Below are positions 1,075-63,823 of a stretch of DNA of 64,000 bases, in pieces (position 1 is the first letter of the stretch; each line of letters begins with the position of its first letter). The position numbers and the translations under genes were made by a program. Origin of the DNA: Cetorhinus maximus (Eukaryota); contig NC_135902.1 in the NCBI RefSeq assembly GCF_964194155.1, positions 49,228,001-49,292,000 on the forward strand, read 5' to 3'. Below the pieces are notes generated by a model. It was not told where the DNA came from and did no database searches. It saw only the letters and a list, made by a program, of their open reading frames with translations.

Positions 1075-1395
1075 AAAGTAAAAAACTGCAGATGCTGGAA
1101 ATCCAAAACAAAAATAAAAATACCTGGAGAAACTCAGCAGGTCTGGCAGCATCTGCGGAGAGGAACACAGTTAACGTTTCGAGTCTGTATGACTCTTCAA
1201 CAGAACTAAGTAAAAATAGAAAAGAGGTGAAATATAAGCTGGTTTGGAGGAGGGCGGGGGGGCTGCACAGGACAGGTAGAGCTGGATAGAGGGCCAGTGA
1301 TAGGTGGAGATAGCCAAAAGATGTCACAGACAAAAGGACAAAGGGGTGTTGAAGGTGGTGATATTATCTAAGGAATGTGCTAATTAAGGGTAAAG
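1075..1395 (-). mobile_element. Penelope-like element 3' terminal fragment with hammerhead-like motif (1169-1207)
   Basis: Near-identical to the terminus of the GIY-YIG/RT element at 3648. Confidence 0.8.
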
Positions 1396-1940
1396 CAGGT
1401 TTTAGTAAACACCTTGTCAAACACCAGGAGAGAAATGGAAAGCAATGAAGGTGAACAAGGCAAAATAAAAGATTGTGCTTTTGAAAGTCAAAAATCAGAA
1501 CAGAGAAATGCTTTGGAAGCTCACAGAAAAGTTTTAAGTTTTGAAAAGACGTAGGATTCAGAAAACCTGGAGATATAAACTAGCGATTTCAACTCATTTC
1601 ATCTTCGCAAGCCTCCCATTATCTTACATAAATGCAAAGTTAGCATTGTCTAGTGCAATTACTACTCACTGCCACAGTACTGTAACATCTAGAATTAGTA
1701 ACACTACCTGTGTGCTGGACGAGGTCCCACTGTTCAGGAGACAGCAAACAAGGAGGGGATGCAGGTGACTTAGAACAAACAAAACTTTAACTGAAAGAAA
1801 ATTCATTTAATTCTTATTTTATACTCATCAAAACGTTCTGCAACTCATCATGGAATATCTTGGTAGGTACAACAAAGAATGAAAAAAATGGAATAAAAAA
1901 GAACAGTTCAAGATACTAAGCAATAATGTTACTATTGTAC

Positions 1941-2460
1941 CTTGCAGTAGATTAGGACGTAGTATAGTGCTCTCCTCCAATAAGTCTTTTAGTGAAGCAA
2001 CAATTTCTTCCTTAGTCAAGTCCTTGTTGCTTAATGGCACTTGCAATGCTGCAGTCTCTATCAGCCTCACTAACCTGTTGTCTGAACTCTGACACCTCAA
2101 CTTATGAGGTGTCGTCACTCCAAATACCTGTTCTCTAGATAATACCACCGAGTCCCACCACTTAGTAGCCAAGTTCTTTTTGAGTTCCATTCCCAAATGT
2201 CCATAATTGTACCAACCATTGATAAGAGCGTCTTGGGTAATTATATCTCCAGTTATAAAATGCCTACTCTGGCAAAGATCAATGAGCGTTTCAGCCAATC
2301 CAGAAAGGTCCGAAGAAGATTTATTGTATTTTCTTGACATCAGGCAAGGGCCAAAGACCTGCCAATCTTGTTGAAACATTTTACTGGAGACCTTCCATTT
2401 CTTCAAGAATGACTTAACAGGAAATTTCATAATCATCAATCCCATGATGGCAAGTTTCAT
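1941..2460 (-). CDS. POLG2: DNA polymerase gamma accessory subunit, first coding exon (gene continues beyond the left edge of the window)
   Basis: Translation LIDLCQSRHF...YGHLGMELKKNLATKWWDSVVLSREQVFGV...LRPNLLQG resembles the POLG2 N-terminus; donor CAAG|GTACAA at 1941/1940; acceptor TACTACAG| at 2537/2536; neighbours DDX5 and CEP95 as in mammals. True start may be Met at 2445 (GCCATCATGG, better Kozak context). Confidence 0.9.
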
Positions 2461-3426
2461 TTATAAGAATTCATAAAGGCAGAATTATCAGAGTGATCTG
2501 AAGTCATTTTAGAACAAGGTTGATGTCACAAAACATCTGTAGTAAAATAAACAGAATATGTAAATGCAAGTAAGCTTATCCATTGTAATAAACATGTTTT
2601 TCCCTTTGAGAATTCCACTTGAGTTAGTAGATTTCAGAACTACAGGTTCTCATATTTATTGATGCTGTAATCAGGTTATTCAGATTAGTTCAGGATAAGA
2701 ACAAGAACTATTAAATATGTTATAGCCCCTCTGCTAAGAGCTACGATAACATTTACAATAGTGTAGTACTACACTAAAGATTTTTAATTTGTACTTTGTG
2801 TTGAATTAGGTAAACTGAATAGAGGGGGAAAATTCTCCAAGGTTCCCACTCCTATTTGTTACCCAATTAACCATATTGGAAATTGTCCATACAGAGATCA
2901 GGCGAGGAAGAAATCAGTCTTTGCTGTAAATCCCCAGCAGCAGAGTTTCCCATTTTAGAACAGCAATTTAAAAACCACTGCAGTGCCCCTCTCACTACCC
3001 CTCTCCCTCGAATTTTTCCTTTTGCCATCCCCCTCAGCCCTTTCCTTCGACCCTCCCCTCAGTCTCCTCCTCTTCTACCACCCCTTCCCAGTCACTTCCT
3101 ATCTCTGTGCCCACTCCCCCCAGTCACCTTCCCTTCCAACCATGACCCCTTCCCTCAGTCACCTCCTCCCCATCCATCTCACCTTCCCTCAAGGCCATAA
3201 CCCTTTCACCAACACCACCACCTTTCCTCAGTCCCATCACCTTCCCCCTGCCCATTTACCCTCAACCCCACTTAGTTTTGTGCAACACAGCAGCAAACCC
3301 AATTACATAATATTTCATATATAAATCTCGGTAGTAGAAAACTCAACGGACAAAGCTGGGGGGGGAAGCCCCAATACACAGAGTGATAATAGCCAGAGTC
3401 CTTAATGTGATTGAAAGAAAATCTAC

Positions 3427-62600: not shown

Positions 62601-63242
62601 GTGTTTTGCTTTTACTATTGTTGCTACTTCTAACCCACTCCAATATTTTTTTAATGGGCTGTTGAAACTTGCACAAAGATGCAAATTATTTTGATCTGAA
62701 TTTTCTCATTTCATTAAAAAATATGTTAAAAAATAGATATTTTAATATATTTTTAACTGTTCTAGCTCCTCATCATCTTCTGTTCCCACCTGGGATGGGG
62801 ATGGATCTGAATCCACCAATGAGCTCATCCGGCTTGGTGAATCTGCCTGTACATACAGCCACAGAAAGAGCACAGGTAATCACTGATGAATCTTTTTAGT
62901 AAGAGAGTAGTATTGTGGTCTGTGGTTATGTTAGCCTTACCGTGTGCTTTATATTAGAAATTTCATTGCTTTTAAAAAGAAATCCATTGCTATGTCTGTT
63001 TCTATTATTACTTTTCATTGGAGCCTCAAATGCAACTTTGATGCTTTTTAAAATTTGTTTTTTGTCCTTTTACTTTTGTCTGTCTTTTCTTTCTTGAGAC
63101 TTGCCTGAATTTCATCGTAGTGTCAAGGAATCAGAACAGAAGTTGAAGATCTTGGACCAAGGAAAAAATGGGATATGCTCCTTTCTTTCTGGTTCTGCCA
63201 CTGTAGCTAATACTAATGAGGAAGAAATGCTACAACCAGGAA
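38654..63242 (+). CDS. CEP95: Centrosomal protein of 95 kDa, coding exons 1-7 (continues beyond the right edge)
   Basis: Exons 38654-38675, 49735-49863, 49995-50102, 50478-50588, 60588-60705, 62766-62875, 63099-63242 give [22 protein letters not shown]...[21 protein letters not shown]...[14 protein letters not shown]...[16 protein letters not shown], resembling CEP95; head-to-head with DDX5 as in human. Confidence 0.9.
38915..38942. repeat. (TC)n microsatellite
   Basis: Direct reading. Confidence 0.9.
40255..41645 (+). mobile_element. CR1 LINE RT/3' fragment
   Basis: [38 protein letters not shown]. Confidence 0.85.
40724..41120 (-). mobile_element. Internally deleted Penelope-like element with directly repeated termini, nested in CR1
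   Basis: Terminus repeated at ~40724 and ~41070; TSD GCAG(G/C)AAGTTAGCAT at 40709-40723 and 41121-41135. Confidence 0.85.
42620..43400 (+). mobile_element. Degraded tRNA-derived SINE(s), DeuSINE-like, with nested pieces
   Basis: B-box-like GGTTCAAGCCCC at ~42682; related remnants at ~6610-6720, ~33200-33560, ~60810-61190. Confidence 0.45.
43570..44225 (-). mobile_element. LINE endonuclease-region fragment
   Basis: [12 protein letters not shown] and [21 protein letters not shown] (APE-like endonuclease motifs). Confidence 0.7.
45329..48919 (-). mobile_element. L1/Tx1-clade LINE: nearly complete ORF2 (APE endonuclease, RT, C-terminal zinc finger) broken by one stop and two frameshifts
   Basis: [91 protein letters not shown] + poly(A); TSD GTCCAAAGACTT at 45317-45328 and 48920-48931. 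Confidence 0.95.
49735..49863 (+). CDS. CEP95: CEP95 coding exon 2
   Basis: [15 protein letters not shown]...[20 protein letters not shown]| and |GTAAGT. Confidence 0.92.
49995..50102 (+). CDS. CEP95: CEP95 coding exon 3
   Basis: [36 protein letters not shown]; 108 nt. Confidence 0.92.
50478..50588 (+). CDS. CEP95: CEP95 coding exon 4
   Basis: [32 protein letters not shown]; 111 nt. Confidence 0.92.
50820..51870 (+). mobile_element. Harbinger/PIF transposase pseudogene (HARBI1-like DDE)
   Basis: [53 protein letters not shown]. Confidence 0.88.
52150..54300 (-). mobile_element. Harbinger second ORF (Myb/SANT-like DNA-binding protein) remnant, convergent with the transposase
   Basis: [21 protein letters not shown] fits the trihelix Myb/SANT-like pattern; position fits the two-ORF Harbinger layout. 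Confidence 0.6.
55295..59720 (-). mobile_element. Near full-length CR1 LINE (ORF1 zinc finger + SGNH esterase; ORF2 endonuclease + RT), decayed
   Basis: [85 protein letters not shown]. Confidence 0.93.
60588..60705 (+). CDS. CEP95: CEP95 coding exon 5
   Basis: Strong acceptor; donor GC|GTAGAG is weak but gives the phase needed for the next exon. Confidence 0.65.
62766..62875 (+). CDS. CEP95: CEP95 coding exon 6
   Basis: [31 protein letters not shown]; donor CAG|GTAATC. Confidence 0.85.
63099..63242 (+). CDS. CEP95: CEP95 coding exon 7
   Basis: Long pyrimidine tract then GAG|; open in phase; donor A|GTAAGT; 144 nt. Confidence 0.65.
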
Positions 63243-63455
63243 GTAAGTAGGAAAATAATGTTTGTTTATAAACAGCAGTAACCTATAGATGGGTGACAAA
63301 TTTGATTTTGTTTTGTTAATTCTTTTGCTTGCATGGAAATACTTCGAATTGTTTTTGTCTAGGAGTTTGTGAATTTGAATCCTGAGGCTGCTTTAGATTT
63401 TTTTTTTATCCACCCTGCAGCCTGGCCCCTTGTCTTTTGAGCAAAAGTAAGGACA

Positions 63456-63823
63456 TTATAAAAGCAAAATCTGGCAGATGCTGGAAATACTCTGCAGGTT
63501 AGGCAGCATTGTGGAGAGAGAAATGGAGATAATGTTTCAGGTGAATGACCTTTCATCAGAACTGGAAAAATGTAGAGATGTAAACTGGTTTTAAGCAAGT
63601 AGAGGCTGCGAAAGCTGGCGAGGGGAGAAGGGAACAAATGAGATGGGGTGGATGACAGGAATTATTAATTATAGAACAAAATGCATAATGATATTGGACA
63701 AAAGTTACATCTCTAAATTTTCCAGTTCTGAAGAAAGGTCATTGACCTGAAATGTTAGCCATGTTTCTGTCCCCACAGATGCTACCTCAGCTGCTGAGTA
63801 TTTCCAGCATTTTCTGTTTTTAT
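63456..63823. mobile_element. Older inverted Penelope-terminus dimer with hammerhead-like motifs
   Basis: Arms ~63460-63585 and ~63703-63823; cores CTGATGA (- strand) and CTGAAGA (+ strand); TAAGGACA at 63448-63455 and 63824-63831. Confidence 0.72.

What the first reader, a model, noticed from the sequence alone, without database searches (positions are those of the whole stretch)
1169..63760. Penelope hammerhead motifs across the window show subfamily-specific catalytic-core variants
Seen: the same scaffold recurs more than a dozen times with cores CTGATGA (6918, 6973, ~63530), CTGAAGA (~18630, ~29800, ~52350, ~63723), CTGTTGA (1169, 3739, 5873, 10611, 14339, 40819) and CTGCCGA (34708, 35834), while stems I/II and GAAAC-GT(C/T) are mostly retained. 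Known: the consensus core is CUGANGA, so CUGUUGA and CUGCCGA alter a normally conserved A. Inference: CUGUUGA is shared by many well-preserved copies, so it was probably present in an active master element; either a tolerated non-canonical core or loss of dependence on self-cleavage.
Basis: partly seen in the sequence, partly recalled or inferred. Interest (0 to 1): 0.7.

Follow-up and report, generated by a model that had tools for sequence, protein, structure and literature searches.

The report
Penelope lineage rewrote a hammerhead core
The youngest intact copies of a very abundant jumping gene in this large animal genome all carry a small self-cutting RNA motif in which one normally fixed letter changed twice (A to U, then U to C) while the rest was kept, which likely means the RNA now cuts itself slowly or not at all, though this is untested.

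Summary
Confirmed and extended. The motifs are minimal type-I hammerheads in the pseudo-LTR of an RT+GIY-YIG Penelope-like element. CUGAAGA and CUGAUGA are both canonical; CUGUUGA and CUGCYGA alter A6. With one fixed flank the genome holds 41,950 U6, 11,516 C6 and 19,658 A6 motifs. U6 and C6 copies are the youngest. Of the 20 longest ORFs found, 19 have a 3' hammerhead and all 19 carry C6, including a 99.97-100% identical tandem array. The lineage went A6 to U6 to C6, so C6, not U6, is the latest master. After losing A6, 13 further changes in the 39-nt motif hit 0 of 15 other conserved sites, and all 4 stem changes kept pairing. The fold therefore still looks selected. Published A6C hammerheads are very slow in Mg2+, and a lizard Penelope element inserts without cleavage in vitro. 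Best reading: a down-tuned ribozyme on an element that copies uncut RNA. Cleavage was not measured. This scan already noted A6C in this genome (e1-9834341). The A-to-U-to-C ladder, the link to intact ORFs and the selection pattern are added here. New variant of a known kind.

The parts
1169..1207 (-). Minimal hammerhead, U6 core (CUGUUGA), older U6 stage, at the end of a 5'-truncated pLTR copy (about 1073-1388)
3621..5870 (-). 5'-truncated, frameshifted Penelope-like element: RT piece (5093-5551), GIY-YIG piece (4182-4658), 3' UTR, hammerhead and tail
3739..3777 (-). Hammerhead, U6 core, in the sense strand 3' of the ORF; G12 and stem II carry copy-specific mutations
5873..5911 (+). Hammerhead, U6 core, in the inverted short arm at the 5' end of the 3621-5870 element
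6918..6956 (-). Hammerhead, canonical A6 core (CUGAUGA), left arm of a head-to-head pair
   Evidence: (I10)
6973..7011 (+). Hammerhead, canonical A6 core (CUGAUGA), right arm of the pair
   Evidence: (I10)
10611..10649 (-). Hammerhead, U6 core, younger U6 stage; the partner arm on + (about 10648-10770) is broken inside the core at the junction
11328..11366 (-).
14339..14377 (-). Hammerhead, U6 core, G12 mutated, at the 3' end of a GIY-YIG-containing fragment (14240-15327)
18595..18666 (.). Head-to-head pair of decayed CUGAAGA copies
29801..29839 (-). Decayed CUGAAGA stub whose homology begins 3 nt before C3
34708..34746 (-). Hammerhead, C6 core (CUGCCGA), inverted arm (34644-35066)
   Evidence: (I3, I4)
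35834..35872 (+). Hammerhead, C6 core, 3' of a GIY-YIG fragment (35077-35981); predicted cut after 35868; youngest element in the window
40819..40857 (-). Hammerhead, U6 core, older U6 stage; identical over 44 nt to 8 other sampled copies
52346..52384 (+). Decayed CUGAAGA copy
63525..63563 (-). Decayed CUGAUGA copy of the oldest short-loop family
63724..63762 (+). Decayed CUGAAGA copy of the oldest short-loop family, inverted partner of 63525

Best explanation
These are the pLTR hammerheads of one autonomous Penelope-like lineage whose master copies changed core position 6 from A to U and later to C, and the motif likely survives as a down-tuned ribozyme that keeps the hammerhead fold but would cut far more slowly than its A6 ancestor. 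Shown: (1) position and strand in the element; (2) U6 and C6 were inherited from masters, in the order A, U, C; (3) copies with the longest and intact ORFs carry C6; (4) the other core sites and the stems stayed constrained; (5) genomic copies were made from RNA not cut at the motif. Inferred: reverse transcription starts in the tail 3' of the hammerhead and has to read through it to reach the ORF, so a cut there would waste the template. Slow cutting would then cost little or would help, while the fold is kept for occasional, probably protein-assisted, dimer cleavage and/or for recognition by the element's protein. In the U6 stage the change is also predicted to zip the two core strands into a 4-bp helix that hides the ACGU dimer palindrome.
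For: Copy numbers: 53,466 of 73,124 exact-flank motifs (73%) are U6 or C6. Age: in 1.18 Mb of evenly spaced genome stretches, 68 of 100 hits had a full core (44 A6, 11 U6, 11 C6, 2 G6). Nearest-neighbour distance outside the core was 0.035 (C6), 0.047 (U6) and 0.124 (A6), p=6e-10. Autonomy: of 150 scored RT matches, 20 had open frames of 789 aa or more; 19 of those 20 have a 3' hammerhead and 19 of 19 are C6. Tandem 3.29-kb units are 99.97-100% identical and encode a 924-aa RT+GIY-YIG frame. Order: a tree built from coding DNA only (88 copies) is a ladder with A6 at the base, U6 in the middle and C6 at the shortest tips. Divergence by stage falls from 0.071 to 0.000. Constraint after A6 loss: 13 changes in the 39-nt motif, 0 in 15 conserved sites (p about 0.002 if spread evenly), 4 of 4 stem changes pair-preserving including U-A to C-G, 9 in N6, N7, N17 and loop II. 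Over the same span synonymous sites diverged 0.152 and the 3' UTR 0.222. Uncut template: 0 of 90 tail-anchored copies were called within 2 nt of the cut site. Predicted U6-A15.1 pairing 0.87-0.98 in U6 stages, 0.00 in A6 and C6 stages. Papers: A6C gave 3.55e-6 per min against 0.3 per min for A6 at 0.3 mM Mg2+ in one hammerhead (PMC7151607); CUGA mutants other than the C-G swap show low activity (PMC9901934); core mutants do not affect insertion of the anole element in vitro and its hammerhead needs protein (PMC11167929).
Against: No cleavage was measured. The downstream tail is also strongly conserved (2 changes in positions 50-79 across all stages), so the core could be held by protein binding or an overlapping promoter rather than by catalysis. 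Against neutral rates alone, 0 changes in 15 sites has p=0.10 (synonymous) or 0.04 (UTR), which is modest. No cut-site footprint is seen in A6 families either (0 of 30 called; L285 may start there by eye), so the genome does not show that A6 ancestors cut more. The fall in short stubs, which a 'less cutting, longer copies' model predicts, happened mostly before A6 was lost: 34 of 52 CUGAAGA copies are stubs, but at most 16.4% of CUGAUGA against 8.5% of CUGUUGA motifs. Many internal tree nodes are weakly supported, and AA, AT and early U6 copies are intermingled. The U6 helix is lost again in C6.
Confidence: 0.55

Rival explanations
1. Catalysis is lost. The hammerhead shape is kept only as a structural element (protein-binding or template-end signal) or through overlap with promoter signals.
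For: HHR mutants insert normally in vitro and no RNA-seq reads end at the cut site in the anole element (PMC11167929). Whole PLE clades lack hammerheads and still proliferate (10.1101/2021.04.23.441226). The tail is as conserved as the core. U6 is predicted to misfold the core. The youngest stage also has U17.
Against: The sites that changed (N7, N17, loop II, pair-preserving stem changes) are those that hammerheads leave free, while single-stranded C3, U4, G5, G8, A9, G12-A14 and the ACGU palindrome stayed fixed through two different N6 states. A natural A6C hammerhead still cleaves (PMC3088659; PMC7151607).
Confidence: 0.25
2. The variant is near fully active in vivo because the element's protein, dimer geometry or Mn2+ makes up for A6, so position 6 has become a free site.
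For: N6 changed twice, as often as N7 and N17, while stems I and II became stronger (fold energy -9.3 to -13.7 kcal/mol from the CUGAUGA stage to the youngest stage). A6C keeps 0.18-0.31 per min in Mn2+. The anole hammerhead is protein-assisted.
Against: Cellular Mn2+ is far below Mg2+ (stated in PMC7151607). No second core change that could compensate appears on the lineage, and none rescued CUGA mutants in a double-mutant scan of another hammerhead. Fast cutting would destroy templates that must be read through.
Confidence: 0.13
3. C6 and U6 RNAs supply only the substrate half of a dimer and are cut in trans by transcripts of older A6 copies.
For: These motifs lack stem III and are thought to work as dimers (PMC4209133). 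The palindrome and stem I 3' strand are shared across stages, and about 19,700 A6 motifs remain.
Against: It does not explain why the enzyme-side bases of C6 copies are conserved. Most A6 copies are decayed: only 5 pass a strict descriptor in 1.18 Mb.
Confidence: 0.05
4. The variants are scattered mutations that arose after insertion.
For: None beyond the general decay of old copies (CpG changes at C11.1, G12, C15.2, G16.2).
Against: Tens of thousands of identical variants, linkage to flanking diagnostic sites, and C6 in 19 of 19 long-ORF copies.
Confidence: 0.01

Closest known systems
Minimal type-I hammerheads (min-HHR) in pLTRs of metazoan Penelope-like elements (Cervera and De la Pena 2014, PMC4209133; parts 1-2 of 4 read, 2 of 3 supplements searched)
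   Same: Sense strand in the pLTR, no stem-loop III, palindromic 15.1-16.1, extra nucleotide between 9 and 10.1, G10.1-C11.1, 4-6 bp stem I, many solo and inverted copies.
   Different: A6 is replaced by U, then C, in active masters. In the parts read, the only core variant named is U3-A8 in Schistosoma.
Natural A6C hammerhead of phage Bcep176 (PMC3088659 section 8; PMC7151607 parts 1-2 of 4)
   Same: C at position 6 with the other core bases kept.
   Different: A single phage motif. Here C6 is in at least 11,516 copies of a vertebrate-type retroelement, in a dimer-type minimal scaffold, reached through a U6 stage. Mn2+ preference is untested here.
PAc, Poseidon element of Anolis carolinensis (PMC11167929; passages and section 3 part 2 read)
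   Same: Hammerhead upstream of the tail where reverse transcription starts; genomic copies come from uncut RNA.
   Different: No A6 change is reported for PAc in what was read, and its ORF starts in stem II. Here the first ATG of the long ORF lies about 190 nt after C3 and the protein has a linker zinc finger.
Neptune/Nematis-type EN+ Penelope-like elements (10.1101/2021.04.23.441226, passages)
   Same: Single RT + C-terminal GIY-YIG ORF, DKG motif, CX4CxxC in the linker, partial tandems, inverted 5'-truncated copies.
   Different: Clade was not placed on a tree here; hammerhead core departs from CUGANGA.

Membership tests
EN+ Penelope-like element | Single ORF with RT followed by GIY-YIG endonuclease | tested here: met
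   924-925 aa frames; RVT_1 E=6e-7 and 4e-6, GIY-YIG E=4e-4 (just under Pfam's cut-off); YIDD at 569, DKG at 328
EN+ Penelope-like element | Tandem pLTR arrangement, inverted 5'-truncated arms, variable tail | tested here: met
   L216/L217 tandem, L220 and window head-to-head pairs, two or more 3' end points
Neptune/Nematis clade | CX2-5CxxC zinc finger between RT and EN | tested here: met
   CX4CxxC at residue 790 of the L216 frame; motif definition
Neptune/Nematis clade | Placement on an RT tree with named references | not tested
   no reference PLE proteins were fetched
PLE minimal hammerhead | Located in the pLTR, sense strand | tested here: met
   117 copies linked within 600 nt of the ORF end
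PLE minimal hammerhead | Core C3-U4-G5-A6-N7-G8-A9 | tested here: not met
   Met by the A6 stages; not met at position 6 by U6 and C6 stages; other six positions kept. These stages are filed as variants, not as canonical members.
PLE minimal hammerhead | G12-A13-A14, A15.1/U16.1, H17, palindromic 15.2-16.2 | tested here: met
   GAAAC-GU(C/U) is the majority in all 8 stages
PLE minimal hammerhead | Extra nucleotide between A9 and a G10.1-C11.1 closed stem II; stem I of 4-6 bp | tested here: met
   Stem II 97.6% and stem I 81.3% of cells paired in 25 distinct of 40 hand-picked gap-free rows; stem I has a C-A mismatch in the CUGAAGA stage
PLE minimal hammerhead | Self-cleavage as a dimer | not testable with these tools
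   No raw-read runs were offered. The dimer hammerhead fold was 4.5-15 kcal/mol less stable than the best co-fold in all 14 variants computed.
A6C (Bcep176-type) hammerhead | Mn2+ preferred over Mg2+ | not testable with these tools
   needs kinetics

The most novel reading that the evidence does not exclude
A retrotransposon lineage was selected to switch its own ribozyme down. A6U both removed a core contact and folded the core into a closed hairpin, A6C later left a conditional (protein- or Mn2+-gated) switch, and this helped the bursts that made tens of thousands of copies. It would be a dated natural series of hammerhead core states inside one autonomous element.
Probability: 0.2. Interest if true: 0.8.

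Novelty: new variant of a known kind. Interest (0 to 1): 0.56.

Why it matters
What the hammerhead does for Penelope-like elements is an open question (stated; dispensable in vitro). This lineage gives a natural, ordered allelic series (A6, U6, C6; the CUGAUGA and early CUGUUGA motifs differ only at position 6) on an element with intact ORFs, so cleavage rate can be compared directly with transposition success. It also shows a blind spot: a strict CUGANGA descriptor found 5 family motifs in 1.18 Mb, while 16 more appeared only when position 6 was freed. Descriptor-based surveys would miss the active subfamilies.

Tried and rejected
Rfam scan: no hammerhead model matched; the miRNA hits are head-to-head arms. 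Register shift to restore a canonical core: considered by eye and rejected, since a U6 shift leaves 2 extra bases before G12 and no stem I, and none exists for CUGCCGA. 'Loss of A6 explains longer copies': 45 of 79 A6 against 17 of 105 non-A6 copies are stubs (my CUGAUGA class there was mixed with older types), but genome-wide counts put most of the fall before A6 loss, so it is not used as support. Cut-site footprint: none in any class. The U6 sub-stage split failed and was fixed. RNA ends: only contigs were offered, so starts, ends and expression could not be read. Small-share runs are no evidence of habitat. Lunse et al. 2017 on PLE hammerhead variants is not held and may list core variants. 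One of 3 supplements of PMC4209133 could not be searched, its figures are not held, and bioRxiv supplements are closed.
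Full report
Observation. Each intact motif reads stem I 5' strand, CUG-N6-N7-GA, an extra A, a 5-bp stem II with a 5-nt loop, GAAAC-GU-H and the stem I 3' strand. There is no stem-loop III, and ACGU is palindromic. This matches the minimal, dimer-type hammerhead described for Penelope-like elements, including the extra nucleotide after A9 (PMC4209133, parts 1-2 of 4 read). Rfam does not detect the motif.

Context. The motif lies in the sense strand about 350-480 nt after an ORF with RT and GIY-YIG pieces. 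The genome is 3.99 Gb. 'Shark-like' rests on my recall of this repeat and on earlier scan notes, not on a test. Full-length frames of 923-925 aa carry RT, DKG, a CX4CxxC linker finger and GIY-YIG, the layout given for Neptune/Nematis-type elements. No tree with named references was made.

Are the variants inherited from masters? With the same flank the genome has 41,950 CUGUUGA, 13,893 CUGAUGA, 11,516 CUGCYGA and 5,765 CUGAAGA matches; reversed controls give 3-19. Exact matching favours young copies. In 118 evenly spaced 10-kb stretches there were 100 hits, 68 with a full core: 44 A6, 11 U6, 11 C6 (one of these a junction artefact) and 2 G6. Nearest-neighbour distance outside the core was 0.124, 0.047 and 0.035 for A6, U6 and C6 (p=6e-10). 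So A6 copies are more numerous but old, and the young ones lack A6. A search with an RT piece from a U6 copy scored 150 of 34,507 candidates. All 20 with open frames of 789 aa or more were fetched; 19 have a 3' hammerhead and all 19 carry C6 (17 CUGCYGA, 2 CUGCCAA). Eight of the 20 run from the start codon to the true C-terminus, and 7 of these 8 have the 3' motif. One locus holds tandem 3.29-kb units 99.97-100% identical.

Order of events. A tree from the last 600 coding bases only (88 of 117 linked copies), rooted on two old short-loop A6 copies, is a ladder with A6 and early U6 copies at the base, later U6 in the middle and C6 on the shortest tips. Many nodes are weak and the AA, AT and early U6 copies mix. 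Stage profiles give median divergences of 0.071 (CUGAAGA), 0.039 (CUGAUGA), 0.039 and 0.039 (two U6 stages), 0.013, 0.025, 0.013 and 0.000 (four C6 stages). Each core step is one substitution: AA, AU, UU, CU, CC, CU. In public contigs of coded organisms A, B and C, about 87-92% of depth at position 6 of a U6 reference is U and 8-13% is A. Against a C6 reference they read U in 97-99%, while organism D reads U in 32%. U6 therefore appears to be shared with relatives and C6 to be more restricted. These are contig depths, biased toward the reference, of uncertain RNA or DNA origin.

Constraint after A6 was lost. From the first U6 stage to the youngest stage, synonymous sites diverged 22 of 145 and the 3' UTR 63 of 284. 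The 39-nt motif took 13 changes: none in 15 conserved sites (C3, U4, G5, G8, A9, extra A, G10.1, C11.1, G12-A14, A15.1, C15.2, G16.2, U16.1), 4 in 16 stem sites, all keeping the pair (including U-A to C-G), and 9 in N6, N7, N17 and loop II. Spread evenly, zero in 15 sites has p about 0.002; at neutral rates p is 0.04-0.10. Pair counts on 40 hand-picked copies agree (stem II 97.6% paired, one pair changed on both sides), though relatedness inflates such scores. The tail is just as conserved, so this shows selection on the shape, not on catalysis.

How it likely works. The tail where reverse transcription starts lies 3' of the hammerhead in the anole element, where uncut RNA is the main substrate, core mutants insert normally and cutting needs protein (PMC11167929, passages and section 3 part 2). 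Here 0 of 90 tail-anchored copies were called at the cut site; 83 extend to position 21 or further 5', and most keep the whole motif. So these copies came from uncut (or re-ligated) RNA. A6C made one hammerhead about 85,000-fold slower in 0.3 mM Mg2+ (3.55e-6 against 0.3 per min) but spared Mn2+ activity (PMC7151607, parts 1-2 of 4). A natural phage A6C motif cuts at under 0.1 per min (PMC3088659, section 8). CUGA mutants other than the C-G swap showed low activity in a double-mutant scan (PMC9901934, passages). Folding predicts that U6 pairs U4-U7 with A14-G16.2 (probability 0.87-0.98), hiding the palindrome; C6 removes this helix while stems I and II get stronger. I infer a down-tuned ribozyme (0.55). 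Rivals: structure only (0.25), compensated activity (0.13), cutting in trans (0.05).

A test that went against one version of this. Old copies often start at the 5' edge of stem I (mode 4 nt before C3, 16 of 52 CUGAAGA copies). Stubs are 45 of 79 in A6 and 17 of 105 in U6/C6 copies. But genome-wide 3,765 of 4,502 CUGAUGA and 7,884 of 8,621 CUGUUGA motifs run on upstream, so most of the fall came before A6 was lost. Only a smaller step (16.4% to 8.5%, partly age) coincides with it.

Novelty. Hammerheads in these elements and a natural A6C are known. Five library searches returned no paper on A6U or A6C in Penelope elements and none listing A6U for a hammerhead, judged from listings except for the papers named above. 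Lunse et al. 2017 is not held, one supplement of PMC4209133 was unreadable, and 10.64898/2026.07.22.740005 (part 1 of 5 and passages) used fixed descriptors and names no core variant in what I saw. PMC6765202 and PMC6155905 were seen as passages. Verdict: real, a new variant of a known kind, interest 0.56.

Noticed in passing
L256-L285 and other loci; window 29801-29839: Old-family stubs start mostly 1-5 nt before C3 (mode -4), inside a YYANWYY-like initiator motif (motif recalled, not from a call). This may be the transcript start. Stub share falls along the lineage.
   Followed up: partly
window 35915-35925 (+); tail position +80 from C3: A CAG|GT splice-donor-like site appears just before A6U: GT in 1 of 37 CUGAAGA, 5 of 19 CUGAUGA, 77 of 81 CUGUUGA and 70 of 74 C6 copies. 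Splicing is untested.
   Followed up: partly
L216:5736-5690 (-); window 35852-35854: Loop II gained AUGAG in the later U6 stage; in the youngest stage its AUG opens a 7-codon upstream frame that ends just after the predicted cut site.
   Followed up: no
window 3739-3777 and 5873-5911: The two arms of one insertion differ at stage-diagnostic sites (loop AUGAG/GUC against AUACG/GUU) yet share a G-to-U change in stem II; possibly two templates in one insertion.
   Followed up: no
L220:4884-5069; window 10645-10652, 18622-18632: Head-to-head junctions often fall inside or just before the hammerhead core; L220 has two full ORFs diverging from such a junction.
   Followed up: partly
window 45471-48945 (-): LINE-type element with endonuclease (PF03372, E=6.5e-17) and RT (PF00078, E=4.9e-39) frames, unrelated to the finding.
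   Followed up: no
L240, L251, L252, L016, L021, L022: A U6 side branch has GAAAC-CUC, which breaks the ACGU palindrome; 3 distinct copies were seen.
   Followed up: no
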